Source of the DNA: an uncultured bacterium
GTDB taxonomy: Bacteria > Patescibacteriota > Patescibacteriia > CAIQCM01
DNA length: 64,000 nt
Reading direction: 5' to 3'
NCBI GenBank assembly: GCA_963708045.1
Contig: OY970181.1
Span: forward strand, 67,740 to 131,739
Shown: positions 2,178 to 59,902 of the stretch, piece by piece
Numbering within the stretch: position 1 is the stretch's first letter
How the letters are laid out: each line of letters opens with the position of its first letter
Position numbers and translations under genes: made by a program
The notes under the pieces: model-generated
The model's database searches: none
Seen by the model: the letters and a program-made list of their open reading frames with translations, nothing else
What the model was told of the DNA's origin: nothing

Positions 2178-2219
2178 TGGCACGGGGCACTTAGCTAATA
2201 GCAAATAGAATTTTAAAAA

Positions 2220-2248
2220 CCCTCTCGCCTTCGCGAGAGGGTTTTTGG
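2220..2248 (+). terminator. Rho-independent terminator after hup
   Basis: The GC hairpin ccctctcgccttcgcgagaggg is followed by a T-run. Confidence 0.7.
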
Positions 2249-2980: not shown

Positions 2981-3163
2981 GATTTCTCCTTGCTGCGGTT
3001 AGGCCGTTGCGCATAATTACGCATTGGGTTAGGCACAGCGCGATACGACCAAAGCCGCATGGCGCTGTGCCCAAAAAAATAACCAACGCCGTAACATAAC
3101 ACAAAACCCCTTGCTGGTCAAGGGGTTTTGTGGGCTTTGTTTTGTTGTGGTATGTGACGCGCG

Positions 3164-8765: not shown

Positions 8766-8838
8766 GGGTCGGTAGCTCAGCCGGTAGAGCGGAGGACTCT
8801 TAATCCTTAGGTCGTGGGTTCAATCCCCACCCGACCCA
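8766..8838 (+). tRNA. tRNA-Lys (anticodon CTT)
   Basis: Acceptor gggtcgg/ccgaccc, D-stem gctc/gagc, anticodon stem gagga/tcctt with loop ctcttaa, and T-arm gtggg-ttcaatc-cccac. Confidence 0.9.
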
Positions 8839-8844
8839 TAAAAA

Positions 8845-8878
8845 ATATCCCACACTTTCGTGTGGGATATTTTTTATT
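8845..8878 (+). terminator. Rho-independent terminator after tRNA-Lys
   Basis: The hairpin atatcccacactttcgtgtgggatat is followed by tttttattt. Confidence 0.75.
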
Positions 8879-10038: not shown

Positions 10039-10192
10039 ACTTACGAAGCAAACCCCTCGCAGACAGCGCGCCCGTCCAGTACGGCGCGCTGTTCTCTTTT
10101 GTCTATAAAAATAAAATAAATCAAGCTCATAACAAAACCTCCCATCTTTCTACGATCGTGGAAAGATGGGAGGTTTTAAAATTTAAAATACA

Positions 10193-10230
10193 GCATCACA
10201 TTAATTCGCGATCGCGAATTAATGTGATGC
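10193..10230. repeat. Perfect 38-bp palindrome gcatcacattaattcgcga|tcgcgaattaatgtgatgc
   Basis: Seen in sequence. It lies between the convergent genes at 9271-10038 and pilT. Hairpins at 10141-10170 and 10291-10310 flank it. Confidence 0.8.
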
Positions 10231-10373
10231 ATAAAAATTTTTTAATAAACATTAATCCGAAGCGAAAAAATAAATTAATAAAAACTTCACCAAAAGGTGA
10301 AGTTTTTATTAATTTTTAAAACTATACCCTTCAGCCAAAGGCTGATCCACCTCAGGCGGAAAACGCTAAAAAA

Positions 10374-11405
10374 CTAATCCGTGGCGCTTCGCTTAAACAT
10401 ATCGGCGATGTCTTGCGAGATTAGGCCTTCGCTTAGTAATTCGCGAACGCTTTGATTAAAATTAAACATCCCGGGCGAGGTCTGCATTACGTTTGGAATT
10501 TGCGCAACTTTATTTTCACGAATCATCGTGCCAATGGCTGGCGAATTTAATAACATTTCGCGAACCGCCACGCGGCCGCCGCCTTCTTTTGGCACCAAAT
10601 GCTGGGCAATAACCGCACGAAGCGAAAGCGCCATTTGCGAACGAATTTGGTTTTGATGATACGGCGGGAACATATCAATAATGCGGTCAATTGCCTGCGA
10701 CGCCGATGGCGTGTGCAAAGTTGAAAGCACTAAGTGGCCGGTTTCGGCCAAAGTTAAAGCCGCGGAAACAGTTTCTAGGTCGCGCATTTCGCCGACCATA
10801 ATCACGTTAGGGTCTTGGCGAAGAACGTGCTTAAGTCCTTCGGGAAAACTGGTCATATCTCCACCAAGCTCGCGCTGACGAATAAGCGCTTTGACTGGCG
10901 AGAACAAAAATTCAATTGGATCTTCAAGCGTCACGATGTTCACCGGCTGTTCTTCGTTAATTTTTTGAATCATCGCGGCGAGGGTGGTTGATTTACCGCT
11001 TCCAGTCGGGCCCGTGACGAGGATTAGCCCGTTCATCGCCGTCGTTAGCCGACCGACCACTTCCGGAAGATCAAGTTCTTTAAACGTCGGAACGGTGGTT
11101 GGAATAACGCGCGCCACGAGCGATAAATTACCGCGCTCAACGCAAATATTCACGCGGTAGCGGGCGCCGTTAACATCGTAAGAAAAATCAATGTCTTTAT
11201 GAGCTTCAAAACGCTGGCGCTGTTCGGGCGTAAGAATTTTATCTAGGATCGCCGAAAGGTCTTTGGCCGTAAGCACCGTGTCGTTAAGCGGGATCAGCAT
11301 TCCGTCAACGCGTAATGTTGGCGGACGATCAATTACCAAATGCACGTCCGAGGCTTTGCGTTCAAAAGCCTTTTTTAAAATGTCAGAAAAACTTATCGTG
11401 GCCAT
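10374..11405 (-). CDS. pilT: Type IV pilus retraction ATPase PilT
   Basis: Walker A GPTGSGKST, a PilT/GspE ATPase core and the VNIVTLEDPIEF motif. Length is 343 aa. Confidence 0.9.
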   Translation of the reverse strand: MATISFSDILKKAFERKASDVHLVIDRPPTLRVDGMLIPLNDTVLTAKDLSAILDKILTPEQRQRFEAHKDIDFSYDVNGARYRVNICVERGNLSLVARVIPTTVPTFKELDLPEVVGRLTTAMNGLILVTGPTGSGKSTTLAAMIQKINEEQPVNIVTLEDPIEFLFSPVKALIRQRELGGDMTSFPEGLKHVLRQDPNVIMVGEMRDLETVSAALTLAETGHLVLSTLHTPSASQAIDRIIDMFPPYHQNQIRSQMALSLRAVIAQHLVPKEGGGRVAVREMLLNSPAIGTMIRENKVAQIPNVMQTSPGMFNFNQSVRELLSEGLISQDIADMFKRSATD

Positions 11406-11419
11406 ATTTTTATTTTTTA

Positions 11420-12115
11420 TTACCAGCCTTTTTTGATAATTCCATTTTCCGCGGCTTTGACCTGAGCTTCTTGTTTAGAACTACCTTCGCCGTCGGCAAC
11501 AAATTCTTCGCCCAAATACACGCCAACTTTAAACCATTTATTATGATCCGGACCTTTTTCTTCAAGAACTTTATAGGACGGCGTAACGCCAGCCGTGTCT
11601 TGCGCCGCTTCCTGAAAGCGACTCTTGGGATCCAAATACAAACGATGTTCCAAAATATACGGCAACTTGACGAGGACGCGCTCGGTGCAGAATTTTTTTA
11701 CGGCATCATATCCCTTGTCTAAGTATATCGCACCAACGATCGCTTCAAAAGCGTTGGCTAAAATATATTGTCGCGCTTTGGTTCCCGCATCTTTTGATTC
11801 ACCACGCGAAAGATAAAGATAATCTTCAACGCCCAAGTCTTTGCAGATTCCCGAAAGCATTACCGCATTTACAAGCGCGGCGCGCCAATTTGTTAGATCG
11901 CCTTCGGGGTTAGGATAATTATTGTGAAGGTGTTCGGTTACAACAAGTTCAACGACCGCGTCGCCTAAAAATTCCAATCGTTCATTGTGACCAAGCCTAA
12001 AATCGGGATGCTCGTTAAGGTAGGAGCGATGAACTAGCGCTTGGGTTAAAAAATCAGGATTAGTAAACTTGACACCGAGTGTTTCTTCTAACCCGGAGAC
12101 ATCTTTGTCGGCCAT
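11420..12115 (-). CDS. rnc: Ribonuclease III
   Basis: The RNase III signature ERLEFLGDAV is present, with a C-terminal dsRBD. Confidence 0.92.
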   Translation of the reverse strand: MADKDVSGLEETLGVKFTNPDFLTQALVHRSYLNEHPDFRLGHNERLEFLGDAVVELVVTEHLHNNYPNPEGDLTNWRAALVNAVMLSGICKDLGVEDYLYLSRGESKDAGTKARQYILANAFEAIVGAIYLDKGYDAVKKFCTERVLVKLPYILEHRLYLDPKSRFQEAAQDTAGVTPSYKVLEEKGPDHNKWFKVGVYLGEEFVADGEGSSKQEAQVKAAENGIIKKGW

Positions 12116-12124
12116 ATCGGTAAA

Positions 12125-12208
12125 ATATCTAATGTCTAATATCTAACGTCTAATGAACGCGCCGAGGCCGTCCTTAGATTAGAAATTAAACATTAGATAT
12201 TGAAATTA
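12125..12208. mobile_element. Short MITE-like element with atctaat heptamer TIRs
   Basis: Left arm atatctaatgtctaatatctaacgtctaat, core gaacgcgccgaggccgtcc, right arm ttagattagaaattaaacattagatattgaaatt (inverted). Confidence 0.6.
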
Positions 12209-12712: not shown

Positions 12713-12796
12713 GGTATTAGGTTTCGGGTTTCAGGTGTTAGGTTCTGTAATGACCTCTAACCTAAAACCTTGAACCTTGAACCTTAAACCTTAAAC
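12713..12796. mobile_element. MITE-like element with aggtttc/aaccttg heptamer TIRs between nusB and rpmF
   Basis: gtattaggtttcgggtttcaggtgttaggtt ... taacctaaaaccttgaaccttgaaccttaaaccttaaacc. Confidence 0.6.
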
Positions 12797-12994
12797 CTAT
12801 TTAGATGTTTTCTTGACCGCCTTAACTTTGGCCGCGGCGCGACCTTGATAAGTGCCACAAAAAGCGCAAGCATAATGCGAGCGAACGGGCTTTTTGCATT
12901 TGGCGCAAATCGTTAATTGCGTCGGCTTAAGCGCAAAATGCGAAGCGCGACGACGTTTGTGCGATGATGTGCGGCGATGGCCGGGTAATCCCAT
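12797..12994 (-). CDS. rpmF: 50S ribosomal protein L32
   Basis: A 65-aa basic protein with a CAKCKKPVRSHYACAFCGTY zinc ribbon. Confidence 0.85.
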   Translation of the reverse strand: MGLPGHRRTSSHKRRRASHFALKPTQLTICAKCKKPVRSHYACAFCGTYQGRAAAKVKAVKKTSK

Positions 12995-13622: not shown

Positions 13623-13694
13623 GAACAGGGTTGTGAATGGTTCATTCCCCTGCTCAGACAAAAACGTTCCTTAAAAAATCCGAAGGAGGCAGTT

Positions 13695-14789
13695 ATGCCA
13701 TTTCGCACCGACGCATCAGAAAGCCGATTGGTTGGAATCGGAATTGACTTAACCGAAATCTGCAACCGCCGCTGTCCGACTTGTTTTGCGGCACATACCC
13801 CGCAGAATATGTCGCTCGCGATTTACCAAAAAATCGTTGACGAAGCCGCTCAGAACAAATTCACCGAGCTATATATTCTCGGCGGTGAGCCAACCTTGCA
13901 TCCCGATATTTTGGAATGTCTGCAATATTCCAAAAATAAATTCAACCTTGTCATCTTGGTAACGAACATGGATCGCTTGGCCGACCGCGACTTTTGCGCG
14001 GCCGTGGAAAACCAAGGGGTGGTCATCGCCGGACAACGGCATACGCTTGGCAAAAATACCCACAGCCTAAGACTTGAACAATTGCTTGCTGGCGGCGACC
14101 ATCTGCACACTTCTAACCAGGCTTGGGAAAACGTGGCCGCAATTTTTCCGCCTGATCGCGTTTGTGTCCAGTGCTGTATTACCGCGCCGGTCATTGAAAA
14201 CGGCGACATCTTTGATGTCTTTCGCTTCGCACGGCAAATGGGTTATGAGCCGGTAATGGAATTTACCAAAGAAGGCGGTTCGTTCAAGCGCGGCGGAGCG
14301 TTGGATATTCAACCATCAACAATGATGAAGGTGCTTAGGGAGTTCCAACGCATTGATCGCGAAGAATTTAATCTGCCTGGCGCAAGTCTGCTTTCGCCAC
14401 AAGCATACGGAAAAACTTGCCATATGCAAGAAACGTCAATTCACTTTCGCGTGATGGGCGAAGCTGTTCCTTGTGTCGGACATCCAGCCTTAAGCTACGG
14501 AAACATTAGAACGAGCGATCTTAGTAAAATACTAAATCATCCGCTTCGGTCGCAGATTGCGTCGCCCGCAACGTGGGTCTATGGCTACTGCCGCGATACT
14601 TGCGAACACTTTGGGCTTTGCACGGGCGGCTGCCGCGGATCAAGTTACGACATGTCAGGGTGTTACCGGGCAAGCTTCTACTATTGCCCGCATATTCCGC
14701 GCGATCGTCTGAATCTCGCCGATATGATTCCGCCAAGTTGCGACGGTTGCCCGCTTAAAGGCAACTCAACCTGTCATCCTAAACGGTGA
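13695..14789 (+). CDS. Radical SAM / SPASM-domain enzyme (peptide-modifying or anSME-like maturase)
   Basis: A CNRRCPTC (CX3CX2C) cluster near the N-terminus. The C-terminal auxiliary-cluster region is Cys-rich and includes CRDTCEHFGLCTGGCRG (CX3CX5CX3C, a SPASM-like spacing). The RBS ggagg precedes ATG 13695. Confidence 0.8.
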   Translation: MPFRTDASESRLVGIGIDLTEICNRRCPTCFAAHTPQNMSLAIYQKIVDEAAQNKFTELYILGGEPTLHPDILECLQYSKNKFNLVILVTNMDRLADRDFCAAVENQGVVIAGQRHTLGKNTHSLRLEQLLAGGDHLHTSNQAWENVAAIFPPDRVCVQCCITAPVIENGDIFDVFRFARQMGYEPVMEFTKEGGSFKRGGALDIQPSTMMKVLREFQRIDREEFNLPGASLLSPQAYGKTCHMQETSIHFRVMGEAVPCVGHPALSYGNIRTSDLSKILNHPLRSQIASPATWVYGYCRDTCEHFGLCTGGCRGSSYDMSGCYRASFYYCPHIPRDRLNLADMIPPSCDGCPLKGNSTCHPKR

Positions 14790-14857: not shown

Positions 14858-15589
14858 ATGGGAAAAAATTCAATTTATAAAAACCAGGTAAAAATATTGG
14901 ATAATGTTTTTGATATTCAAAAAATTATTTCCGTCCGTTTTTCCAATACCAAAACCGACGCCTATAAAAAATATAACGACACTGCCTGCACTATTTTGGC
15001 GCGATGTTTTAAAAACAAAATTTTAACCTATATAGATCGCCGCGTTGGCCAGTCTTGTCCGGGTGGTAATTATTTTTTAGGCATCATCCCTGCAAAAAAA
15101 AATGCGCTGCGCGGAACATACGTTATGGACGAAAAAGTTTTTAAAACTAATGCCGGTTGCGACGCGTTTATAAACAAACTACCAAAATTTCCAAGAGCGG
15201 CGCAAAAAAATTTCGTGTTGTTTTCTCCACTCTTTAAAGAAACAAAAAAACCAGACATCATAATTTTACTCGTAAACGCCGCGCAAGTCGGGCGGCTTTT
15301 GGGCTTGGGCGCGTATCGTCAATTTTCTTATCCGCAAATTCTTCCGGCAATTTCAACTTGCGCCAGTATTTACGCGCCGCTTGACACGAACAGCATTCAC
15401 CTTAACTTTATTGATTATTTTGACAGATATTATCAAGGAAAACAGGCTGGTGGATTATTATGGAGCGATACGGACATAATCGTTTCTATGCCATATCGTC
15501 TTTTTTGCAAATTAATCCACGACGCCCCGCTTTCGGCCCACGGCAGTTATAAGCCAAATATCAAACCGCAAAAAATTGATCCGATATAA
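14858..15589 (+). CDS. Hypothetical protein, tentatively DUF169 family
   Basis: A 243-aa ORF that directly follows the rSAM gene after a hairpin. The family assignment comes from motif memory (SCPGGNYFLG) and is unverified. Confidence 0.45.
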   Translation: MGKNSIYKNQVKILDNVFDIQKIISVRFSNTKTDAYKKYNDTACTILARCFKNKILTYIDRRVGQSCPGGNYFLGIIPAKKNALRGTYVMDEKVFKTNAGCDAFINKLPKFPRAAQKNFVLFSPLFKETKKPDIIILLVNAAQVGRLLGLGAYRQFSYPQILPAISTCASIYAPLDTNSIHLNFIDYFDRYYQGKQAGGLLWSDTDIIVSMPYRLFCKLIHDAPLSAHGSYKPNIKPQKIDPI

Positions 15590-15590
15590 A

Positions 15591-15620
15591 AATACTCCGC
15601 CAATTGGCGGAGTATTTTAT
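15591..15620. terminator. Bidirectional terminator between DUF169 gene and gyrA
   Basis: aaaatactccgccaattggcggagtatttt. Confidence 0.7.
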
Positions 15621-15629
15621 TGATAAATT

Positions 15630-18094
15630 TTAGACAATGGTGACCGTGGACAGCGCGTCGTTTTCTTCCTTAAAGCGCATAATGCGAACGCCTTGGGTGG
15701 CGCGGCCGATCGTCCGAATCTCGCCCAAAGCCAAACGAATAACTTGGCCATGATTGGAGATCGCAACGATATCGCGTTCATCTTTGGCCGAAACAACAAA
15801 GCCGGTTACGATCTCGCCCGTCTTGGCCGTGACTTCGGCCGTCTTAATGCCGGAGCCGCCGCGCCCTTGCAAACGATATTCTTTCAAGTTAGTGCGTTTG
15901 CCAAAACCGTGCGCCATGACGACCAAAAGTTCCAGCAAATTCTTTTTTACTTCTTCGGAAGAAACAACGTCCATGCCGACAATGTAGTCACCGCGCTTTA
16001 ACTTCATTCCGCGGACGCCCGAAGCGGTACGTCCCATAGAACGAACATCTTTTTCTTCAAAGCGGATGGACATTCCTTTGCCGGTAATGATGACGATTTC
16101 GTCTTTGCCGGTTGAAGGACGAACATATTCAAGTGAATCCTGTTCGTGGAGTTTAAGCGCGATCAAGCCAGAGCGGCGAACTTGGGCAAATTCAGCGATC
16201 TCGGTTTTCTTAATCACACCCTCTTTTGTAATCATCACAAGATACTTAGCGTCGGGCATATCCGAAATCGGCAAAACAGCCGTAACTTTTTCGCTTGGCG
16301 CAAGCTGGAGGAAATTAACCAGTGCCTGTCCCTTGGCCGTTCGCGAGGCCGGCGGAATATCATATGCCTTAAGTTGGAAGACGCGGCCGCGCGACGTAAA
16401 GAAGAGAACATCGGCGTGCGTGCTCGTTGTAAACAACTGTTCAACCATATCTTCTTCTTTGGTCGCAACGCCGATCACGCCCTTGCCGCCGCGCGATTGG
16501 GCGTGGAACGTGTCCGGCGGCACGCGTTTTACATAGCCATCACCGGTAATAATGACAATCGTGGACTCATCAGGAATAACGTCTTCCATTGAAAATTCTT
16601 TAACCCCATGCGCGACGACTTGCGTCCGGCGCTCGTCGCCAAATTTGTCGCGAAGCCCAATGACCTCGTCGCGGACGATTTGCAAAATGCGTTTGGGCGA
16701 CGCCAAAATCGCCATCAGTTCTTTGATAATCTTTTTCTTTTCTTCAAGTTCGGTTTCAACCTTAATTCGTTCCAGGTTGGCAAGCTGCTGCAAGCGCATT
16801 TCCAAAATCGCAACCGTCTGCGCGTCCGAAAGCTTAAACTGCTTGATCAAATTAATCTTGGCTTCGTCTTTGTCCGTAGATTTTTTGATCGTCGCAATGA
16901 CCTTGTCAATATGAAGAATGGCAATGGATAATCCTTCCAAAATATGAGCCCGTTCTTTGGCGCGCATAAGGTCAAATTCGGTGCGCTTTCGGACAACGAC
17001 TTCGCGATGCTTAATATATTCTTCTAACAAAGTTTTTAAATTAAGCACGCGCGGCTGGATACCATCCACGAGCGACAGCATATTCACATGGAAAGTTTCC
17101 TGCAGCTGCGTCTGTTGGAACAAACGATTTAAAACTTTCTTTGGGTACGCGTCTTTTTTAAGTTCAATTACAACGCGCACGCCGTCCTTGTTGGACTCGT
17201 CGCGAATATCGCGGATGCCGTCAATTTTTTTGTCGCGAACCAGATCGGCGATTTTTTCCAAAAGCGTCGCTTTGTTTACCTGATAAGGAATTTCATTGAC
17301 GATGATCTTAAAAGCGCCGGCGCTATCTTCAACGATTTCCGTTTTGGCGCGCAAGTAATCGGCCCGCGACCAGTAACATAAGCCGAGAGAATTTCTTTCT
17401 TGTTATAAATAATGCCGCCGGTCGGAAAATCAGGTCCTTGAACAATATTGGTTAAATCTTCAACCGTTGAATCTGGCTCGTCAATAACTTTGACAATCGC
17501 GTTAGTAATTTCTGTCAGGTTGTGCGGCGGAATGTTCGTGGCCATGCCGACGGCAATGCCGACCGTGCCGTTAAGAAGCAAGTTGGGCAATTTTCCCGGA
17601 AACACCGACGGCTCTTTGTGCGAACCATCATAGTTCGGAATAAACGGAACCGTTTCTTTATCAAGATCAAAAAGAAGTTCTTCGGCGATCGGCGAAAGTT
17701 TGGCTTCGGTATAACGCATGGCCGCGGCGCCATCGCCGTCCATTGAGCCAAAGTTTCCTTGGCCATTCACGAGCGGATAGCGCATAGAGAAATCCTGCGC
17801 CATGCGCACCATTGATTCGTAAACCGCGGAGTCGCCGTGCGGATGGTATTTACCAAGCACTTCGCCGACCACAGTCGCCGATTTTTTGAATTTAGCGTTA
17901 GCGCGAAGGCCGATCGCCCACATCGCATAAAGAATGCGGCGATGCACTGGTTTCATGCCGTCTCTGGAGTCGGGAAGGGCGCGAGCAACAATGACTGACA
18001 TTGCGTAGTCTAGATACGACTCCTGCATTTCCGTCGTAATCTGCCGTTCGTTTATCTTACCGATAAGAAATTCTTTTGGTTGTTTATCACTCAT
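15630..18094 (-). CDS. gyrA: DNA gyrase subunit A, interrupted by an apparent -1/+1 frameshift near 17355-17375
   Basis: The N-terminal ORF (17276..18094) has the GyrA active-site region and ends in an out-of-frame tail (...[14 protein letters not shown]). The C-terminal ORF (15630..17354) begins [10 protein letters not shown], whose homologous sequence is normally contiguous with the N-terminal part. The +1 frame across the junction reads ...RAKTEIVED. Confidence 0.85.
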
Positions 18095-18459: not shown

Positions 18460-19140
18460 TTACGTTTTTTCCAAAACGATTATTTTAGTTTCGGTAGTTG
18501 GCAAATCTTTTTTAGTAATCTTTAGTCTGCTCACGCGTTCAGCTTTAGTGGCGGCAATTTCTTTTAGAAATTTTTCAACATCGTCGCCGCCTTTGGGCAT
18601 TCCGGGAAGGGCGTAATGCATTGGGATAACAATTTTCGGTTCAAGTTCGGAAATAATCGCCACCGCTTCTTTGGCGTTGATCGTTGAATTTCCACCGACC
18701 GGAATAAGCAAAATATCAATGTCTTCAAGCGCTTCGCGCTCGGCGTCCACAATCGGCGTACCAAGATCGCCCAAATGCGCAAAAGAAAGATCGCCGATTT
18801 CAAAACGATAAATTGTGGTGAGTCCGCGTTTTTTCCCGTCGGCGGCATCATGCGGTGCAGGAATACCATAGACAAAAAGTCCACCAATTTCGTATTCGCC
18901 CGGCGAAGTTATTTTAAAAACGTCGCTCTTCCCTTCCATCACTTTAACGGCATCAATATTATTGTGCCAGCTATGATCGTGAGAAACCGTAACAACATCG
19001 GCCGATAGATTGCGCGGTAATTTAAGTCCAGTCTCTGCCTGAAAAGGATCAGTAACGAGTGTTGTTGAGGCATCGCCGTTCTTCGCTTCTATGGAAAAAC
19101 AGGAAACGCCGTGCCATTCAAAAACTAAGGTTGAAGCCAT
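18460..19140 (-). CDS. Metal-dependent hydrolase, beta-lactamase-like fold (UPF0173-like)
   Basis: The VSHDHSWH metal-binding motif and an overall pattern (...HLGDLG...) fit MBL-fold hydrolases. Confidence 0.65.
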   Translation of the reverse strand: MASTLVFEWHGVSCFSIEAKNGDASTTLVTDPFQAETGLKLPRNLSADVVTVSHDHSWHNNIDAVKVMEGKSDVFKITSPGEYEIGGLFVYGIPAPHDAADGKKRGLTTIYRFEIGDLSFAHLGDLGTPIVDAEREALEDIDILLIPVGGNSTINAKEAVAIISELEPKIVIPMHYALPGMPKGGDDVEKFLKEIAATKAERVSRLKITKKDLPTTETKIIVLEKT

Positions 19141-19250
19141 ATCTAGTAAGAGTGATTCTTTAATTTATTAAAATAATTATCCGCCGTAAAACGTCCTTTT
19201 TTGAGCTTATAATTTATCACAGCGAACCTTGTCTGGCAATGGATAAATTA

Positions 19251-19371
19251 CCTTGCGAGTTTTATTATTTTCCGCCTCAAAAATTTAATATGATTACCGC
19301 TTGCGATTTTTTGTCACTGGTTAATCTATGCCAAACGACCGTTTCGGCGGGAAATAATAAAACTCGCAAGG
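19251..19371. repeat. Hairpin element A: 26-bp perfect inverted arms around a 69-nt core (tcaaaaat...ttttttgtcac...cgtttc)
   Basis: The arms ccttgcgagttttattattttccgcc and ggcgggaaataataaaactcgcaagg are exact reverse complements. Confidence 0.7.
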
Positions 19372-19388
19372 TCGGGCTATAGATAAAG

Positions 19389-19522
19389 ATCGGCGACTTC
19401 CTCTTTTGTTATTTTTCACCTCAAAAGTCAGAAGAAACCGCCGTTGTGCAAATTGTCTAAATTGATTATTTTGTCATCAGCAATTGTTTCGGTGAAAAAT
19501 AACAAAAGAGGAAGTCGCCGAT
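19389..19522. repeat. Hairpin element B: 32-bp perfect inverted arms around a 70-nt core (tcaaaagt...ttgattattttgtcatcagcaattgtttc)
   Basis: The arms atcggcgacttcctcttttgttatttttcacc and ggtgaaaaataacaaaagaggaagtcgccgat are exact reverse complements. A terminator-like hairpin follows at 19540-19570. Confidence 0.7.
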
Positions 19523-19598
19523 AGAGACGAAAATGAGACGCGGCTGGAAAAACGAGTTTTCCAGCCGCTATGCGATGGGTGTCATTCGCGCCTCCGTC

Positions 19599-20015
19599 CT
19601 ATTTTGACAAAATCTGAAGATCACTGACTCTTGCGTAGATAATCCGCCTTTCTGCCAAAGACGCTTCGCCAACCAAACGAACGCGGATTTCGTGATAATG
19701 CCCGTTCGGATCGGACTTTATCAAAAGATTCATCGTCCGCTCTGGAAGTGAGCACCTCCCTGCCTGATCCCAGCGGTTTTTAAAAAGTGGCCCCGCGATG
19801 GCAAAAAGATTGCTGTCTTCCGGAAGTTTTGGAAAATGCTTGGCAAAAACCTCGGGGCTTAACCTGAAACAGTCGGTCTGGTTAAAATTAGGCACCGTCG
19901 GTAATTTTTTATCCTCACATTCCCTTGCCCCAGCCGGAAAGGGGTAGACTTGACCACAAAAACGACAGGTTCGCGAAGTAATATCGTTGCGAATTATTGG
20001 TGCCGCTCTTACCAT
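19599..20015 (-). CDS. Hypothetical protein (Cys-containing, 138 aa)
   Basis: A single ORF with no recognisable family. Confidence 0.5.
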   Translation of the reverse strand: MVRAAPIIRNDITSRTCRFCGQVYPFPAGARECEDKKLPTVPNFNQTDCFRLSPEVFAKHFPKLPEDSNLFAIAGPLFKNRWDQAGRCSLPERTMNLLIKSDPNGHYHEIRVRLVGEASLAERRIIYARVSDLQILSK

Positions 20016-22814: not shown

Positions 22815-22931
22815 AAAAATACCGATTATAATATAGTAGCCCCCCACTTTCTTTTGATTAAGCGAACCGCAAAATATGGGGTCGCTTGTTAAAAGAAAGT
22901 GGGGGGCTCTATTTGTTAATACACACATATC

Positions 22932-27041: not shown

Positions 27042-27665
27042 GTGCCTACAGAAATGCGAGAAAAAATTCCCGGCGATCGCGTTCGTTATCTGCCGCCCGA
27101 CGGAACGGAAATAGAAAATAACTGGAAACTAATCCGTTACGAACCTGATTCGGGAAACGCGATTTTGGAACGCAATGCCACGCGCGTTAATGTGCCGCGC
27201 GAAAATTTTTTACTTTTAAATTTTCCCGGCAGTGATGACCTTTATCTTTGCCTTCAGAGCAGTATCGCTCGCGACCCCATGGCAACGAGCGCGATTAATG
27301 CTTGGAAAAACAACGATCTTAAAACCGTTAAACGCAATCTTACTGACATCATCAGCCGAAATGCGCCGGCGTTTTTGGGCATTCAAACCGCTTCCGATCT
27401 TTCGCAAAAACTTGTTGAACGCGAGGAAGCGATTGATAATTCAATGCGTATTCTCAAACTAGATATTGGCAGAGCCGAACAAGAATATAACCGCTTTGAA
27501 GCCAAAACAAACTTTGAGCGCGATAAGAAAGACAACCTCCTAATGCGTCTCCGCAACTTTCAAGATCAATACGCGACCAAACTTTTTGAAAAAAATAATC
27601 TTGTCCCCATTTGGCAAGAACTCTTTCGCGCCCTTTCGGCGATTGAATTTAAACTTAGAAATTAA
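27042..27665 (+). CDS. Hypothetical protein (207 aa)
   Basis: ORF only. The C-terminal half is predicted helical. Confidence 0.5.
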   Translation: MPTEMREKIPGDRVRYLPPDGTEIENNWKLIRYEPDSGNAILERNATRVNVPRENFLLLNFPGSDDLYLCLQSSIARDPMATSAINAWKNNDLKTVKRNLTDIISRNAPAFLGIQTASDLSQKLVEREEAIDNSMRILKLDIGRAEQEYNRFEAKTNFERDKKDNLLMRLRNFQDQYATKLFEKNNLVPIWQELFRALSAIEFKLRN

Positions 27666-27671
27666 CCTGCA

Positions 27672-27801
27672 AAGAAAAACCAGAAACCGCATTTTTTCAC
27701 CGAAACAAATTGACGATGAACAAATAATCAACCATTTTATTTAGCTTTAAGAATATATTTTCTAATTTTTGAGGTGAAAAAATGCGGTTCTGGTTTTTCT
27801 T
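27672..27801. repeat. Hairpin element C (opposite orientation): 29/30-bp inverted arms around a 71-nt core whose reverse complement shares ttgattatttgttcatcgtcaatttgtttc with element B
   Basis: Arms aagaaaaaccagaaaccgcattttttcacc / ggtgaaaaaatgcggttctggtttttctt, with one extra A in the left arm. Confidence 0.7.
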
Positions 27802-27852
27802 ATTCACACATCGCCTGACGGCGATTTTTTTGTTATACTGGCGGAAAGCAAT

Positions 27853-30743: not shown

Positions 30744-30755
30744 TCTTTTTCAAAA

Positions 30756-30788
30756 TCTGCCCCGATAAATATCGGGGCAGATTTTTAT
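30756..30788 (+). terminator. Rho-independent terminator (ccccgat-NNNN-atcgggg class)
   Basis: tctgccccgataaatatcggggcaga + ttttt. The same loop motif recurs at 37540, 40205, 42870 and 57022. Confidence 0.75.
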
Positions 30789-33542: not shown

Positions 33543-33675
33543 AATTATTATATTCTATCACAAAATTAAACCACTTAGACAGACACCCCTTTTTCTAAGT
33601 TTATCCGATCGGATAAACTTAGAAAAAAACGAGGCCCGCCCAGGATGAGCAGGGCGGGCCGAGCGAAAGCGGCGG

Positions 33676-37456: not shown

Positions 37457-37601
37457 TAACCAAGCGCACTCGTGTCTGCCTAACGCAGACGCGACAAAGA
37501 GCACGCTCTTTGCCACCGAGCGCGCTTTTTGTTTTAAACAAATCCCACCCCGATATATATCGGGGTGGGATTTGTTTATTATTTGTTTGCGATTTTATTT
37601 T

Positions 37602-39709: not shown

Positions 39710-40201
39710 ATGGCCAATTTTAAAAAAGGCTTTACCTTAATTGAGCTATTGGTTGTAATTGCAATCATCGGCCTGCTTTCAACAATCGCCGTTATCTCGC
39801 TTAGTAATACTAGGGTCAAAGCTCGGGACGCCAAACGCGCCGCTGATATGCGCCAAATATTGACTGCGCTTAATCTTTACCAAGACCAGTACGACTGTTT
39901 GCCAATTACCAACCTTTCCACTTGTCCGGGGAATGGTGGTTATAGTGAATGGAACGCGGGCGCGTGGGATTATAGTTCGCAGGGCGGATTCCTAACTTTT
40001 CTGCAAACGTCTGGAATTATGTCCAAGGTACCCGTTGACCCGATCAACAATATGACCGGCGACGGCACCCCCGCCGGCAGTTATTCTTATAGATATTTTT
40101 GTTATCCTTCTGGACCGCATTTGGTTTATTTTAGAGAGTCTGATTATACCCAGATCGGCGTACTCGTAACAGGAACCGACTCTGGTTACGTCTGCAAGTA
40201 A
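39710..40201 (+). CDS. Type IV pilin / pseudopilin
   Basis: The class III signal KKGFTLIELLVVIAIIGLLS is the canonical prepilin cleavage and methylation motif. Confidence 0.85.
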   Translation: MANFKKGFTLIELLVVIAIIGLLSTIAVISLSNTRVKARDAKRAADMRQILTALNLYQDQYDCLPITNLSTCPGNGGYSEWNAGAWDYSSQGGFLTFLQTSGIMSKVPVDPINNMTGDGTPAGSYSYRYFCYPSGPHLVYFRESDYTQIGVLVTGTDSGYVCK

Positions 40202-40329
40202 AAATACCGCCCCGATGGCCATCGGGGCGGTATTTTTATAATCTTGGGAACCGATAGTTGACCAGAAGAGGGTTTTCTGTTATGTTGTTCTGAACAAAAT
40301 CGCCAGTAACGATTTTGGGGGAGGAACAA

Positions 40330-41617: not shown

Positions 41618-41867
41618 TACCACTTCGGTGGTGGGCGTTTTTATTTTTTCTTGTTTTCCGATCAAACCAAGAGCGTTCCTTTTTCTTCCAACTTTTCCCG
41701 ATCGGGAAAAGTTGGAAGAAAAATATTTTAATAAAATTATCAAGAATGTCCACTATAACGGCAAACTGGCATAGCCACTTATTTGGATAAACAAAAAACC
41801 ACCCCGATTAAAGGTTGATCTTTTTTTGCTGAGCCGATCTCAGTCAAAATAGGTAAGCCAAGTTTGT
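41618..41867. repeat. Inter-cassette junction copy 1: terminator + palindrome/AT-box module M1a (41683-41747) + module M2a (41790-41867)
   Basis: M1a is about 90% identical to 42785-42848. M2a is about 85% identical to 43700-43777. Confidence 0.7.
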
Positions 41868-41952: not shown

Positions 41953-42693
41953 ATGAAAGTAACAAATTTGTTTTCGCAAATTTTCCTGACAAGCGCATTC
42001 CTTATATTTCTCTCCGATGGAATCAAGGCCGACGAACCAACAATTGAAACCGACACCGATTTTGTTGAAACCTCTTTGAATACAGAGCCATCAATCACTG
42101 TCTACCCAACATTCAGGCACGACGCTCGTCCGGTCAACATTGATGGTTACGGTATCTATTCAACTTTTGGTATATCCAAGGAGATCGTCAAAGTTGACGA
42201 CAACGGTAGTGTTTCATTTAGTCCCTGGTCATGCCGAGAAGATTATTGTCTATTATTTTGCTTATATTGGCATGTTTTACGCCGACAATTTGACCAAATC
42301 ATTGACCTGAGTCAGGCCGACGGCATTGAAGTAACTATCAATGTTGAAAAACCTCTAAAAGTCAATGTAAAGAGGGATGGAAAATGTAGGACGCACTTGC
42401 GTGTCGTACTCTGCGATCGTGATAAAACGCTCACCGGTCGTAGAAATAACAACTTTGACAACCAATGGATTTTTGACCTACCAAAGTCAGTTCTCTATGA
42501 GAAGCATTCTGTCACTTTGAGGGTTCCATTTAGCAAGCTTCGCAAGCCGAGTCAGGACGAAAAAGGATCGAGAATAAGTTCCCTGCGTCGTTTCCGGCCG
42601 ACATATACAACGGCATACGAAATTGCGATTATTGGAATCAGCTGGAACGATTTTGGAATCACTAGCGTAATTACCTACAAGGACAAGAAATAA
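41953..42693 (+). CDS. Secreted hypothetical protein (cassette 2)
   Basis: Signal peptide MKVTNLFSQIFLTSAFLIFLSDGIKA. Length is 246 aa. Confidence 0.55.
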   Translation: MKVTNLFSQIFLTSAFLIFLSDGIKADEPTIETDTDFVETSLNTEPSITVYPTFRHDARPVNIDGYGIYSTFGISKEIVKVDDNGSVSFSPWSCREDYCLLFCLYWHVLRRQFDQIIDLSQADGIEVTINVEKPLKVNVKRDGKCRTHLRVVLCDRDKTLTGRRNNNFDNQWIFDLPKSVLYEKHSVTLRVPFSKLRKPSQDEKGSRISSLRRFRPTYTTAYEIAIIGISWNDFGITSVITYKDKK

Positions 42694-42727: not shown

Positions 42728-42848
42728 CTGCCACTTCGGTGACGGGCGCTTTCTTATATAAACAAAATCGGGAATATTTATTTTTTCTTCCAACTTTTAC
42801 CGATCGGTAAAAGTTGGAAGAAAATATTTTAATAAAATTATCAAGAAT
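42728..42848. repeat. Inter-cassette junction copy 2: terminator + M1b
   Basis: ccacttcggtgacgggcg ... ttcttccaacttttaccgatcggtaaaagttggaagaaaatattttaataaaattatcaagaat. Confidence 0.7.
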
Positions 42849-46680: not shown

Positions 46681-46943
46681 ATTTACATATCATAACACTT
46701 TGAACCAAATTTTCATTATTGATAAAAAAAATTGACTAGCCCCTCCCTTTGGTAAAAGGGAGGGTGCCCGAAAGGGCGGGAGGGTTCTGTTTTGTTACGT
46801 TAGGACGAAACAAACTCCCCGCCTCGTTGGCGGACAAGCCCCTACCCCCCGATGGACATCGGGGGGGGTAAGACAATTCCAAAATACTTAAACAAAAACA
46901 TCCCTCACTTGTATAAAGTGAGGGATGTTTTTTAAATTTTAAA

Positions 46944-56916: not shown

Positions 56917-57129
56917 CACGCAAAAACCCTCTCCCGGCCTTCGGCCAGCTGAGCTGGCCTGCGGACCACCCTCCCCCATTTTTGGGGGAGGGTTTTAAAA
57001 ATACGAAGCCGCATCTAACAAAAACCGCTCCGATAAATATCGGAGCGGTTTTTGTTAGTAAGTATTAAGTATATTTATACCGTCGCAAACAACAACTAAT
57101 TTAATTATTCCTTAAATAAATTAAACAGA

Positions 57130-57528: not shown

Positions 57529-57935
57529 AAAAAATAATTAATTATTATTGTATTATTCTACAATATTTTATCTAGATTGTCAAGATAAATGTATGTCCGA
57601 GTACCCTTCCTCCCGCAAAAACCTTAACGCTGCCGTCCGAAGGACGCAGCGTTCTAGATAACAAAAACACCTCCACTTTATTAAGTGGAGGTGTTTTTTA
57701 TCACATACAGGGGGTCGCGCCCAAGAAGTTTGGTACAAGGGAATGTTGAGCCGGAGCCCACGCAATCCTAAAAACCAAACCCCATGCTTGTCGTGGGCGC
57801 GACCGCTATTTGCGAATTTAGTTCGCTTAGCAGCCGTGCGAGCAACAACTAAAAATACCATAACTATGCCGAACTGTCAAGTCCCGTATATTTATACGCA
57901 AAAGCCGCCCGTTTGGGCGGCTTTTAAAATCTATT

Positions 57936-58584: not shown

Positions 58585-58759
58585 AAATATCTAATTTTAC
58601 GCCGTCATTCCGAGCCCGTAAGGTCGTTTTGTCCAGGGCTCGGCCGAGCTCAGCTCGGCGAGGGATCTCGCAGACGACTTAGAGACGTTGGGTTCCCTCA
58701 TCGCTCCCACTCTTCGGGATGACGCCAGAGGATTAGATATTAGGTATTCATAATCACTC
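58585..58759. mobile_element. Single-unit copy of the 'gtcattccgagc' palindromic MITE with atctaat/attagatattagg flanks
   Basis: gccgtcattccgagcccgtaaggtcgttttgtccaggg ... gggatgacgccagaggattagatattaggtattc. Confidence 0.7.
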
Positions 58760-58788: not shown

Positions 58789-59832
58789 TTAGTCTACGGA
58801 AACACTCCACTCATTTTCCATCTCAACAATCTTTCCTTTAACAACAAACCCTGCGGCTTTGCGGTGGCCACCGCCGCCCCAGCGGAGTGCTTCGGCTGCG
58901 ACGTCAATGTCTTCGCGTGCTGTGCGCAAGCTCCCCTTTATCGTTCCGTCGTCGTTTTCGCGCAAAACCAAAACCGTTCGCGCTGGGAGGACACTGTTTA
59001 AAAAATTAGAAAGACCACCAAGGGCGTCTTCGTCTATGCAAAGCAAAGCCGTTTCTTCGGCGTAAAGAACGGTGGAGGCGCGACCAAGATCGGTGTTGTA
59101 CTTTAATCGCTCTAGCGCTTTACCCCAAAGCGAGAGTGATTCTATGGATTTATTTCTAACAACCAGACGGGAAACAAAATGGCGGTCGGCGCCGAGCGCT
59201 TCTAGGCGCGACGCGACGGCGAGCGATTCGGCAGTTGTCGCCGGATTAAAAAACATCATCGTATCGTGAATAACGCCGGCGAGCATATTTGTTGCCGCGT
59301 CCTCGGAAGCGGTATGACCAAAACATTCGTAGACGCCAAAAATAATTTCGGTCGTAGAAGCGGCCGTCGGAATTACCAAATTCACATCGCCAAAAAATTC
59401 GTTAGCGCCGTGATGGTCAATATTAACAATAAACGGACGCGGTGAAAGCGAAGGAATCACCTTATCCATACCGGCGAACTTTAAATCGCTCGCGTCCAAA
59501 ACCACGATAGCGTCAGCGTTAGAAAAGACGCCAAGGTCGGCGGTAAACTTTTTGGAATTTGGCAATTCCACAAGCGACAATGGAACCGGATCGGACGAAA
59601 AACAAGCCACAGTTTTGCCTCGTTTTTCTAAAAGGTCGGCGAGCGCCAGCGCCGCGCCAAGCGTGTCCGCATCAGGCCGACGATGTGAAACCGTAACAAT
59701 TCGGTTGGCTTTGTTAAGCGCCGAAACGACCGCGTTAAATTGAATCGTGTTTGAAGTCATCCAGACACAATACGGCCATATTTTTGCCTTGTCAATGGGC
59801 GGCCTTTGGCCGTAAAATGAAACATGAAGCAC
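58789..59832 (-). CDS. nrnA: DHH/DHHA1 phosphoesterase (NrnA-like oligoribonuclease/pAp phosphatase); likely start at 59757
   Basis: The DHH motif region (VSHRRPDADTLGAA) and the C-terminal DHHA1 GGGH motif are present. The N-terminal extension of the ORF overlaps a repeat element. Confidence 0.75.
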   Translation of the reverse strand: MLHVSFYGQRPPIDKAKIWPYCVWMTSNTIQFNAVVSALNKANRIVTVSHRRPDADTLGAALALADLLEKRGKTVACFSSDPVPLSLVELPNSKKFTADLGVFSNADAIVVLDASDLKFAGMDKVIPSLSPRPFIVNIDHHGANEFFGDVNLVIPTAASTTEIIFGVYECFGHTASEDAATNMLAGVIHDTMMFFNPATTAESLAVASRLEALGADRHFVSRLVVRNKSIESLSLWGKALERLKYNTDLGRASTVLYAEETALLCIDEDALGGLSNFLNSVLPARTVLVLRENDDGTIKGSLRTAREDIDVAAEALRWGGGGHRKAAGFVVKGKIVEMENEWSVSVD

Positions 59833-59902
59833 GCAACATGAAACATCACCATCCCGCTTCGCGGGGTTAATGTGTTTTATGCTTCATGTTTCATGCTTCA
59901 TA
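59816..59902. repeat. atgaaac-heptamer inverted-repeat element between nrnA and smc
   Basis: aaatgaaacatgaagcacgcaacatgaaacat ... cccgcttcgcgggg ... tgcttcatgtttcatgcttcat. Confidence 0.6.

What the first reader, a model, noticed from the sequence alone, without database searches (positions are those of the whole stretch)
19251..19522. Family of about 130 bp hairpin elements: a conserved 70 nt core with arms that differ between copies but stay perfectly complementary
Three copies (A 19251-19371, B 19389-19522, C 27672-27801 in the opposite orientation) share the core boundaries TCAAAAnT...GTTTC. They also share an internal block, about ttgattatttTGTCATCagCAATTtGTTTC. Their 26-32 bp arms are unrelated between copies yet exact reverse complements within each copy. 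Classical MITEs show the reverse pattern, with conserved TIRs and a variable interior. The pattern here suggests either selection for a long stem, meaning a structured RNA, or a DNA mechanism that copies flanking sequence in inverted form on insertion. Perfect 30-bp stems without G-U pairs favour a DNA-level origin.
Basis: seen in the sequence. Interest (0 to 1): 0.8.

Follow-up and report, generated by a model that had tools for sequence, protein, structure and literature searches.

The report
Small hairpin repeats inside locus-specific palindromes
Three ~125-135 bp hairpin repeats in the gaps between genes of a candidate-phyla-radiation bacterium are real and their long stems are actively kept paired, but they are most simply read as a new small repeat family (a conserved ~90 bp centre sitting in the middle of a locus-specific palindrome) rather than a new kind of genetic mechanism.

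Summary
A (19250-19372), B (19389-19522) and C (27672-27801) are 123-134 nt hairpins with 27-32 bp arms around 69-71 nt loops, far beyond chance. Details need correcting: only B is perfect, only B and C share the internal block, and the inner 9-11 bp of the arms (TTTTYCRCC/GGYGRAAAA) are conserved in all copies.

Related Patescibacteria contigs gave three orthologous copies (A' and A'' at the A site, C' at the C site). Neutral sites are ~50% diverged, yet pairing is kept by double substitutions: 92.8% of cells paired, 18 of 32 pairs covary, 0 of 500 shuffles reach this. One orthologue (A'') has decayed. Other relatives lack the copies as whole units.

Paralogue loops are as alike as orthologue loops, but paralogue outer arms are unrelated. 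The window holds 19 other perfect palindromes.

Best reading (0.4): a ~90 bp miniature element with short inverted repeats, nested at the centre of host palindromes. Main rival (0.3): an integral REPIN-like hairpin. No family member was found outside this narrow lineage in ~1.1 Mb searched, and no transposase lies in the window. Function is untested. Interest is moderate.

The parts
19250..19372 (-). Copy A, whole hairpin (sense = minus strand): arms 19250-19276 / 19346-19372, loop 19277-19345 (69 nt)
   Evidence: 26 of 27 pairs, with one C.A on the sense strand. Fold z -8.5/-7.3. CM R1 106 bits. Orthologues: L124:507-631 (A') and L210:1316-1443 (A'').
19389..19522 (-). Copy B, whole hairpin: arms 19389-19420 / 19491-19522 (32/32 pairs), loop 19421-19490 (70 nt)
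   Evidence: 100% complementary. Fold z -11.5/-12.2. CM 123.5 bits. Absent as a whole unit from L210 and L124, which keep copy A.
27672..27801 (+). Copy C, whole hairpin: arms 27672-27701 / 27773-27801 (29 pairs + 1 bulge), loop 27702-27772 (71 nt)
   Evidence: CM 110.5 bits. Orthologue C' at L211:1300-1428 (= L212:664-792). Absent from L121, L126, L209 and L210.
19412..19420 (.). Conserved inner stem (putative short TIR) of B, left half TTTTTCACC. Partner is 19491-19499 GGTGAAAAA. Equivalents: A 19268-19276 / 19346-19354; C 27692-27701 / 27773-27782
   Evidence: Alignments A1 and A5: consensus TTTTYCRCC / GGYGRAAAA in all six copies. B and C are identical over these 9 bp and unrelated beyond them.
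19421..19426 (.). Junction signature. Gene-sense strand: stem-CC|GAA(A)C ... TTTGA|GG-stem. Plus strand for A and B: CC|TCAAA ... GTTTC|GG. Shown here for B, left junction.
   Evidence: Invariant columns in the six-copy alignment A5: CCGAA ... TTTGAGG.
19540..19568 (-). Intrinsic terminator of the upstream gene (19599-20015, minus). A and B lie downstream of it.
   Evidence: Conserved in L124, L209 and L210.
19211..19239 (-). Promoter-like site TTGCCA-17-TAAATT (with TG) for the Lactamase_B_3 gene 18460-19140. Copy A ends ~11 nt upstream of it.
   Evidence: The block TTTATCCATTGCCAG..GTGATAAATTATA is conserved in all relatives, with or without A.
27810..27825 (+). Conserved terminator ATCGCC-tgac-GGCGAT + T-run, 8 nt downstream of C. 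C therefore sits between the stop codon (27665) and this terminator.
   Evidence: Conserved in L121, L126, L209, L210 and L211.

Best explanation
A lineage-restricted family of small non-coding dispersed repeats in an Uhrbacteria-like Patescibacterium. The module shared between paralogous copies is the central ~88-92 bp. It consists of an AT-rich 68-71 nt segment with fixed ends (sense GAAAC...TTTGA), bounded by 9-11 bp inverted repeats (TTTTYCRCC / GGYGRAAAA). This module sits exactly at the centre of a locus-specific perfect palindrome with 17-23 bp arms, so the two stems stack into one 27-32 bp stem. The most likely history has two steps. First, a miniature, non-autonomous transposable element with short TIRs lands at the symmetry centre of one of the many palindromic hairpins this genome carries. 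Second, the outer stem is kept paired by whatever keeps all palindromes in this genome perfect: template-switch correction of imperfect inverted repeats, plus selection on the RNA hairpin where it is transcribed. Shown: the anatomy, presence or absence as units, covariation, conserved inner repeats and junctions, unrelated outer arms in paralogues, and the abundance of other perfect palindromes. Inferred: mobility, targeting of palindrome centres, and the correcting process.
For: (1) Paralogues B and C have loops as similar as the orthologues C/C' (0.65 vs 0.64 identity). Their arms are at random level (0.44-0.47) apart from 9 identical inner bp, whereas orthologue arms are 0.59-0.68 identical. 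Core and outer arms therefore have separate histories. (2) B keeps the 5' block shared with C and the 3' 14-mer shared with C' (70 sequences). Its core thus looks ancestral or consensus-like, yet its arms are unrelated to theirs. (3) Arms of 27-32 bp are longer than any plain palindrome in the window (maximum 22-24). They equal a 9-11 bp TIR plus a typical 17-23 bp palindrome arm. (4) C's outer arms have the A-run / GC stem / T-run build of this genome's ordinary terminators and start 6 nt after a stop codon. (5) The window has 19 perfect small-loop palindromes against ~0.1 in shuffles, often clustered in one intergenic region. (6) One palindrome family (CCCCCCACTTT...) occurs with loops of 0, 3, 35 and 78 nt, and the larger loops are unrelated. 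(7) Copies come and go between relatives. In L209 and L210 the C site holds other small repeats. (8) Ordinary palindromes also change compensatorily between relatives: window 10272-10315 vs L215:11765-11805. (9) Template switching that corrects imperfect inverted repeats to perfect ones is documented (PMC5941160).
Against: No relative shows an 'empty' palindrome at the A, B or C site. Wherever a copy is missing, both arms are missing too, and the length difference is ~130 nt rather than ~90. This reading therefore needs two events per locus. No armless copy of the central module was found in ~1.1 Mb. No target-site duplication can be read, because any duplication at a palindrome centre is itself palindromic. 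No transposase, integrase or reverse transcriptase lies in the 64 kb window, and no parent element is known. Three of three loci share the gene-sense orientation, and C' has 4 G.U against 0 C.A on the sense strand. These hint at an RNA-level role that this reading does not need. Only six copies at three loci are known.
Confidence: 0.4

Rival explanations
1. Integral hairpin element (REPIN-like). The whole ~130 bp stem-loop is the unit that is copied. It is recognised as a folded single strand at the stem-loop junction and loop. The outer stem needs only to pair, so it drifts by compensatory change or arm-to-arm correction until paralogue arms are unrecognisable.
For: Copies are gained or lost as whole units of ~130 nt, which needs one event per locus. 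All six known copies have long arms and no armless copy was found. Junction nucleotides CC|GAA..TTTGA|GG are invariant while loop and arm sequence evolve nearly neutrally. [quoted passage not shown]
Against: Orthologue arms and loops diverge at equal rates (0.59-0.68 vs 0.60-0.66). B-C loops are 0.65 identical while their outer arms are random. This needs a very old family whose core is conserved only in active lineages. No RAYT or other Y1/HUH gene lies in the window. The outermost ends, which are conserved in REPINs and MITEs, are not conserved here. A'' shows that resident copies can decay.
Confidence: 0.3
2. Host cis-acting structured RNA, not a mobile element. A long double-stranded hairpin is transcribed with the flanking genes and acts as an RNase III substrate, a 3'-end protector, or an insulator between adjacent transcription units.
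For: Strong covariation: 92.8% of cells paired, 18 of 32 pairs with double changes, 0 of 500 shuffles reach it, and slid controls give 44-57%. All copies at all three loci are gene-sense, although A/B and C lie on opposite DNA strands within a window of uniform GC-skew sign. Among well-kept copies, non-Watson-Crick cells are 5 G.U against 1 C.A on the sense strand. On the sense strand only, the junctions could form a tandem G.A/A.G (inference). C and C' lie inside a 3' UTR, 5-6 nt after the stop codon and before the terminator. RNase III is encoded at 11420-12115.
Against: No Rfam family reaches threshold. RNAalifold finds no conserved structure in the loop. Loop sequence is nearly neutral. 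The neighbouring genes are unrelated in function. Copies are absent from close relatives and one has decayed. A and B lie after a terminator and before a promoter, so they would be transcribed only by read-through. Five to one G.U is not significant (one-sided p ~0.11), and three of three orientations gives p 0.125. A 30 bp perfect stem is more than RNA folding needs.
Confidence: 0.15
3. A ~70-90 bp core inserts, and the insertion process (or later template switching) copies one flank of the target in inverted form to the other side, creating locus-specific arms.
For: It would explain locus-specific, perfectly complementary outer arms next to conserved inner repeats that could seed the switch. 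Template switching is reported to homogenise and expand inverted-repeat arms (abstracts of PMC8604942 and PMC13100816).
Against: One arm should then pre-exist in the empty site, and the net gain should be ~90-110 nt. At the B site, the window's non-element spacer (17+16 nt) already equals the whole spacer of L210 and L124 (~21-36 nt). At the C site it is 6+8 nt against 10 nt in L121. Both arms are therefore extra. The arms have no match in the flanks or anywhere else in ~1.1 Mb. With ~50% neutral divergence, a 20 nt homology could have been erased, so this is weakened rather than excluded.
Confidence: 0.07
4. Invertible promoter switch (inverton), small peptide or type I toxin gene, intrinsic terminator, or assembly artefact.
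For: Long inverted repeats flanking an AT-rich segment with weak promoter-like matches. Short ORFs exist on the antisense strand of A and B.
Against: The orientation is the same in all five independent assemblies. 70 bp between the repeats is very short for site-specific inversion (own knowledge). No recombinase lies in the window. ORFs differ in frame, length and sequence between orthologues, and a 1-nt indel separates B and C. The loop is 70 nt and no T-run follows A or B, while real terminators lie next to the copies. Orthologues in independent metagenome assemblies exclude an artefact.
Confidence: 0.03

Closest known systems
REPINs (REP doublets forming hairpins, mobilised by RAYT transposases; PMC3116915)
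   Same: Roughly 100 bp intergenic hairpin-forming non-coding repeats. The critical features are length and the capacity to form a hairpin. Compensatory changes are common across the stem. Copies sometimes cluster, and families are lineage-specific and vertically persistent.
   Different: In REPINs the two ends (REP 16-mers) are the most conserved part and the middle is variable. Here the ends are unrelated between loci, and the middle (junctions, inner 9-11 bp, loop length) is what is shared. No RAYT was found in the window. Known copy number is tiny (three loci) against hundreds.
Classical bacterial MITEs such as Correia/NEMIS elements (own knowledge)
   Same: Small, non-coding, intergenic and co-transcribed. 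They fold into hairpins and show presence/absence between relatives. If the unit is redefined as the central ~90 bp, it has short conserved terminal inverted repeats and a less conserved interior, as a MITE should.
   Different: The full 27-32 bp arms are not conserved between copies. No target-site duplication is readable. No parent IS or transposase was identified. All copies sit at the exact centre of a long palindrome.
Insertion sequences that target palindromic units: IS1397/ISKpn1 into the loops of REP/PU sequences, and IS110-family elements into REPs (own knowledge, not checked here)
   Same: A precedent for a mobile element that lands specifically at the apex or centre of a host palindrome. 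The result is host-derived complementary arms around a conserved insert.
   Different: Those are full-length IS elements that encode a transposase, and their targets are a repeated REP family. Here the insert is ~90 bp and non-coding, and the palindromes are locus-specific.
Quasi-palindrome correction by DNA polymerase template switching (PMC5941160; PMC8604942 and PMC13100816 abstracts)
   Same: It explains perfect Watson-Crick arms, multi-nucleotide 'compensatory' differences (including transversions) between orthologues, and the genome-wide excess of perfect inverted repeats.
   Different: It is a process, not an element. It does not explain the conserved loop, junctions and loop length, nor the dispersal to three loci. 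It usually concerns short spacers, whereas here the spacer is ~70 nt.
Integron attC sites (own knowledge)
   Same: Recombination sites recognised as folded single strands, in which structure rather than sequence is conserved.
   Different: attC conserves the outer R''/R' boxes (RYYYAAC/GTTRRRY) and has extrahelical bases. It occurs in cassette arrays next to intI. None of these features is present here.

Membership tests
Classical MITE | Short non-coding multi-copy element, present or absent between relatives | tested here: met
   Three copies in 64 kb. Whole-unit presence/absence among relatives.
Classical MITE | Terminal inverted repeats conserved between copies | tested here: inconclusive
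   The outermost 17-23 bp of the arms are unrelated between loci. The inner 9-11 bp (TTTTYCRCC/GGYGRAAAA) are conserved. This is met only if the element is redefined as the central ~90 bp.
Classical MITE | Target-site duplication flanking the element | tested here: inconclusive
   No direct repeat flanks the 123-134 bp units. At the inner boundary any duplication would be palindromic and therefore invisible.
Classical MITE | Cognate transposase or parent IS with the same ends in the genome | not testable with these tools
   None in the window. The rest of the 1.19 Mb genome could not be fetched.
REPIN / REP-RAYT | Two highly conserved REP sequences in inverted orientation at the two ends | tested here: not met
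   The ends of A, B and C (ACCTTGCG.., ATCGGCGA.., AAGAAAAA..) are unrelated.
REPIN / REP-RAYT | Hairpin maintained with compensatory changes | tested here: met
   92.8% of cells paired, 18 of 32 pairs with double changes, 0 of 500 shuffles reach it. Pairwise counts.
REPIN / REP-RAYT | A RAYT (Y1 transposase) gene in the genome | not testable with these tools
   No PF01797-type hit among window ORFs >=150 aa. The whole genome is not available.
Integron attC | Conserved R''/R' boxes at the outer ends, cassette array, intI nearby | tested here: not met
   Outer ends are not conserved. Neighbours are housekeeping genes and no integrase is present.
Invertible promoter (inverton) | Both orientations of the segment occur; site-specific recombinase present | tested here: not met
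   The loop has the same orientation in window, L124, L210/L215 and L211/L212. No recombinase lies in the window. Read-level heterogeneity was not testable.
Intrinsic terminator | GC-rich stem, 3-8 nt loop, U-run directly after the stem | tested here: not met
   Loops are 69-71 nt and no T-run follows A or B. Canonical terminators lie beside the copies. Only C's outer arms have the A-run/T-run build.
Any described RNA family (Rfam 15) | Covariance-model score at or above the gathering threshold | tested here: not met
   Only three tRNAs pass in the window. The permissive scan gives only sub-threshold plant/animal miRNA-precursor models, the best at 45 bits against a threshold of 90. This reflects a generic long hairpin.
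Type I toxin / small protein gene | ORF conserved in frame and sequence between orthologues | tested here: not met
   ORFs differ in length, frame and sequence between A, A' and A'' and between C and C'.

The most novel reading that the evidence does not exclude
The whole hairpin is a structure-specified replicator, the mirror image of a MITE or REPIN. The only sequence requirements would be the stem-loop junction (CC|GAAAC...TTTGA|GG), ~10 bp of inner stem and a ~70 nt loop. The outer 20 bp may be any sequence as long as it pairs, and would be kept perfect by arm-to-arm template switching. It would be recognised as a folded single strand (the transcript or the non-template DNA strand, given the gene-sense bias) by an enzyme not yet identified in Patescibacteria.
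Probability: 0.25. Interest if true: 0.7.

Novelty: new variant of a known kind. Interest (0 to 1): 0.4.

Why it matters
Patescibacteria (CPR) genomes are small and poorly understood, and almost nothing is known about their mobile non-coding DNA or their regulatory RNAs. This family is a clean case of a long stem kept paired across species whose neutral sites are ~50% diverged. It therefore offers a way to separate RNA-level selection from DNA-level arm correction. If the nested reading is right, palindrome centres in these genomes are insertion hot-spots, which matters for annotation (terminators disrupted by inserts) and for how intergenic regions turn over. If the integral-hairpin reading is right, it would be a mobile element defined by structure rather than by terminal sequence. 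In either case the covariance model built here (R1) can be used to census the family.

Tried and rejected
(1) My first idea was that the arms are pre-existing terminators and only the 70 nt core is inserted. I set it aside when relatives lacked whole units. I revived it in modified form, with the insert being the core plus 9-11 bp TIRs, after the paralogue/orthologue comparison.

(2) The genome-contig scan used too loose a pattern (CCTCAAAAN{52,70}GTTTCGGYGR). That cap was wasted.

It was still useful as ~0.8 Mb of negative control.

(4) Exact-protein look-ups for the source genome beyond the window failed.

(5) Sequence-only profile (nhmmer) searches for cores found no extra copy, and missed even the orthologues.

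(6) A structure-plus-junction regex over 2.1 Mb (both strands) found only A, B and C.

(7) Covariance model R1 over 1.0 Mb, plus newly fetched close-relative contigs (about 35 kb of it new sequence), found only the six known copies and their duplicates.

(8) Viral contig scans gave one chance match.

(9) BLAST of the arms against everything held found no donor or flank match.

(10) Small-ORF, promoter-in-loop, K-turn / box C/D-like and IHF-site readings were considered. ORFs are not conserved. Promoter-like matches are weak and not shared. The other motifs are not shared by all copies (by eye on alignment A5).

(11) Other large-loop hairpin families in relatives (ACCCCGCACC.., ACCCCGTTAGA.., CCCCCCACTTT..) were compared with this family and are unrelated.

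(12) I tried to infer the direction of arm conversion from A, A' and A''. It was uninformative, because A'' mismatches are mostly its own transitions.

Full report
OBSERVATION.
- B has 32-nt arms (19389-19420 / 19491-19522), 100% complementary, 70 nt apart.
- A has 27-nt arms (19250-19276 / 19346-19372), 96% complementary, 69 nt apart.
- C (27672-27801, opposite strand) has 29 pairs plus a one-base bulge around a 71-nt loop.
The shared junction pattern occurs three times in the window and never in 100 shuffles. Either strand folds with z-scores of -7.3 to -12.2. Perfect arms >=13 nt around 45-110 nt loops number 6 in the window against 0 in ten shuffles.

Three details need correcting.
- Only B is perfectly paired.
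- The 'conserved core' is really conserved only between B and C (z 6.6). A-B reaches z 3.4 and A-C z 1.9.
- The arms are not wholly unrelated. Their inner 9-11 bp (TTTTYCRCC / GGYGRAAAA) are shared by all copies.

CONTEXT. The window is chromosomal DNA of a Patescibacteria (CPR) bacterium. Pfam shows housekeeping genes (gyrA, ftsH, S1, pilB-like, RNase III, RNase Y, nrdD, clpP, SMC) and no transposase, integrase or reverse transcriptase. The identical neighbouring protein sits on a 1,188,223-bp NCBI contig. Relatives at about 72% identity are named Candidatus Uhrbacteria.

A and B lie 16 nt apart, between the terminator of the upstream gene (19568-19540) and the promoter-like site of the Lactamase_B_3 gene (19239-19211), all on the minus strand. 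C lies between the stop codon at 27665 and a conserved terminator at 27810-27825 on the plus strand. All three copies therefore have the same orientation relative to the flanking genes: the sense strand reads stem-GAAAC...TTTTGA-stem. Because GC skew keeps one sign across the window, A/B and C have opposite orientations relative to replication.

RELATIVES. Orthologous loci came from exact look-ups of homologues of three window proteins. Synteny is conserved.
- Copy A has orthologues in L124 (A', 507-631) and in L210/L215 (A'', 1316-1443). L210 is the closest relative, at 90% amino-acid identity in the neighbouring gene.
- Copy A is absent from L209, L121/L122 and L126.
- Copy C has an orthologue in L211/L212 (C', 1300-1428), found through a BLAST of the junctions.
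- Copy C is absent from L121 and L126. In L209 and L210 other small repeats occupy its site.
- Copy B is unique to the window, although L124 and L210 keep A next to the empty B site.

Wherever a copy is absent, both arms are absent and the length difference is the whole unit. At the B site the window's non-element spacer is 17+16 nt, against about 21-36 nt in L124 and L210. At the C site it is 6+8 nt, against 10 nt in L121.

COVARIATION. A' keeps a strong stem (fold z -7.6), yet its arms differ from A's. A'' has a decayed outer stem (z about -2).

Pairwise counts:
- A vs A': 5 double substitutions, 1 one-sided change that keeps the pair, 0 broken.
- C vs C': 3 double substitutions, 4 one-sided changes (all giving G.U), 1 broken at the outermost position.
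- A'' against either orthologue: 7 broken.

On the six-copy alignment A5, 92.8% of cells form standard pairs, against 68.9% in shuffles and 44-57% with partners slid by 1-3 columns. Eighteen of 32 pairs show changes on both sides, and no shuffle of 500 reaches any of the measures. RNAalifold predicts the long stem only, with nothing conserved in the loop.

Non-Watson-Crick cells on the gene-sense strand:
- A: one C.A.
- A': one U.G plus a bulge.
- B: none.
- C: a bulge.
- C': four G.U, one A.G and a bulge.
Five G.U against one C.A is suggestive of RNA-level tolerance but is not significant.

RATES. Four-fold degenerate sites are only 48-55% identical between the window and L210, L124 or L211. 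Orthologous arms are 59-68% identical and orthologous loops 60-66%, so primary sequence is close to neutral. What is held is pairing, loop length (68-71 nt in all six) and the junction CC|GAA...TTTGA|GG, which is invariant in A5.

The informative contrast is between paralogues and orthologues. B and C have loops as similar (0.65) as C and C' (0.64), but their arms are at random level (0.44-0.47) outside the nine identical inner base pairs. B also shares its 5' block with C and its 3' 14-mer (CTTCTGACTTTTGA) with C'. Its core therefore looks ancestral while its arms are unrelated to theirs.

EXTENT. I found no other member.
- nhmmer on the window and close relatives: nothing.
- A stem-plus-junction search over 2.1 Mb (both strands): only A, B and C.
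- Covariance model R1 over 1.0 Mb of Patescibacteria DNA, plus newly fetched close-relative contigs holding about 35 kb of new sequence: only the six known copies and their duplicates.
- Two viral-collection scans: one chance match.
- Rfam: nothing at threshold.
The rest of the source genome could not be reached. My genome-collection scan was wasted on too loose a pattern.

THE GENOME'S OTHER PALINDROMES. The window holds 19 perfect hairpins with arms >=13 nt and loops <=10 nt, against about 0.1 in shuffles. Many have the A-run/stem/T-run build of bidirectional terminators, and some cluster three to an intergenic region (10134-10315). They too change compensatorily between relatives: window 10272-10315 against L215:11765-11805. 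Perfect Watson-Crick stems are thus a property of this genome and not of this family.

Published work supports preferential correction of imperfect inverted repeats to perfect ones by template switching (PMC5941160). One palindrome family (CCCCCCACTTT...) occurs with loops of 0 and 3 nt (L215, L214), 35 nt (window 22838-22908) and 78 nt (L210:3515-3630). The two large loops are unrelated to each other.

EXPLANATION. Core and outer arms have separate histories. The inner 9-11 bp behave like short terminal inverted repeats. The total arm length equals that repeat plus a typical host palindrome arm. C's outer arms look like an ordinary terminator placed 6 nt after a stop codon.

Given these points, I favour (0.4) a miniature element of about 90 bp nested at the centre of locus-specific host palindromes. 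The outer stem would be maintained as all palindromes here are. This removes the apparent paradox of a 'reverse MITE'.

The weakness of this reading is that no relative shows an uninterrupted palindrome at any of the three sites, and indels are about 130 nt rather than about 90 nt. It therefore needs two events per locus.

The main rival (0.3) is that the whole hairpin is the unit, REPIN-like but with the conserved part at the apex. That fits the whole-unit indels. It needs an old family in which the arms have randomised while the core stayed constrained.

A purely host-functional RNA hairpin (0.15) is supported by orientation, G.U asymmetry and the 3'-UTR position of C and C'. It is weakened by patchy distribution, the decay of A'', unrelated neighbouring genes, and the position of A and B outside predicted transcription units.

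High divergence prevents excluding it.

An inverton, a peptide gene, a terminator and an assembly artefact are rejected.

These readings are not exclusive. A nested or integral repeat can also act as an RNA hairpin when it is transcribed.

COMPARISON AND VERDICT. The closest known kinds are REPINs and classical MITEs.
- REPINs are hairpin mobile DNA with compensatory changes, but with conserved ends and a RAYT transposase (PMC3116915).
- Classical MITEs are matched only if the unit is redefined as the central ~90 bp.
- Insertion of IS1397-type or IS110-type elements into palindromic units is a precedent for apex targeting. This rests on my own knowledge and was not checked here.
The family fails the defining feature of REPINs (conserved ends) and of attC sites. 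Its membership among MITEs is inconclusive.

I rate it a new variant of a known kind: a real, well-supported, lineage-restricted hairpin repeat family with an unusual distribution of conservation. Its function is untested and only six copies at three loci are known. Interest is 0.4.

Noticed in passing
window 2215-2246, 3100-3132, 8838-8877, 10134-10177, 10193-10230, 10272-10315, 15589-15618, 30752-30785, 33590-33627, 37535-37578, 40199-40238, 46894-46932, 57015-57058, 57663-57698: There is a strong excess of long perfect palindromes: arms of 13-22 nt with loops of 0-10 nt, 19 observed against ~0.1 in shuffles. Many have the A-run/stem/T-run build of bidirectional terminators, and several have a ...CCGAT|ATCGG... 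apex. Three sit in a row in the convergent intergenic region 10134-10315.
   Followed up: partly
window 41680-41723 and 42780-42827: Two near-identical loopless 44-48 bp palindromes (TTTTTCTTCCAACTTTTCCCGA|TCGGGAAAAGTTGGAAGAAAAA). Each is followed by the same ~25 nt (ATATTTTAATAAAATTATCAAGAAT). Together they flank the gene 41953-42693. They look like a duplicated operator/promoter module or a small repeat.
   Followed up: no
window 15630-17354 and 17276-18094 (minus strand): gyrA is split into two overlapping ORFs of 272 aa and 574 aa, whereas all relatives have a single 821 aa gene. This indicates a frameshift, which could be a sequencing error, a pseudogene or recoding.
   Followed up: no
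window 22838-22908; L210:3515-3630; L215:5352-5391; L214:7657-7707: A palindrome family with arms CCCCCCACTTT(CTTTT) occurs at different loci with loops of 35, 78, 0 and 3 nt. The arms are conserved and the loops are unrelated, the opposite pattern to the finding.
   Followed up: partly
L121:6905-7020, L214:17540-17657, L216:15735-15861 (=L217:8843-8969), L143:1401-1517: A classical-looking hairpin repeat family with conserved outer termini ACCCCGCACC(TTTGG) and variable 70-92 nt interiors, found in relatives of the window organism. No copy lies in the window.
   Followed up: partly
L121:7655-7775, L141:8624-8756, L148:5068-5158 and 13640-13735, L149:9776-9894, L158:12334-12442 and 12766-12874, L163:1763-1876: A second hairpin repeat family with conserved termini ACCCCGTTAGA...TCTAACGGGGT and 63-111 nt interiors. 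It is widespread in distant Patescibacteria, including an identical pair 432 nt apart in L158.
   Followed up: no
window 58586-58741; L209:10620-10715; L210:10672-10795; L154:10659-10742: Imperfect hairpin repeats with termini of the type CGTCATTCCGAGC / GTCATTGCGAGG ... CTCGGAATGACG. In L209 and L210 they occupy the site that copy C occupies in the window.
   Followed up: no
L209:1486-1544 and 10825-10855; L210:10885-10915; L126 upstream of pilB: Runs of the heptamer (T/A)GTTCAT, direct and inverted, lie just upstream of promoters in relatives but not in the window. They may be a regulator-binding array.
   Followed up: no
window 12124-12201; L216:9922-9991; window 59817-59894; L215:9254-9333: Imperfect inverted repeats made of short tandem units lie between conserved genes. 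AATATCTAATGTCTAAT... sits between the NusB and RNase III genes (confirmed in L216:9922-9991; inferred for window 12124-12201). ATGAAACATGAAGCA... sits at window 59817-59894 and L215:9254-9333. Both recur in relatives.
   Followed up: no
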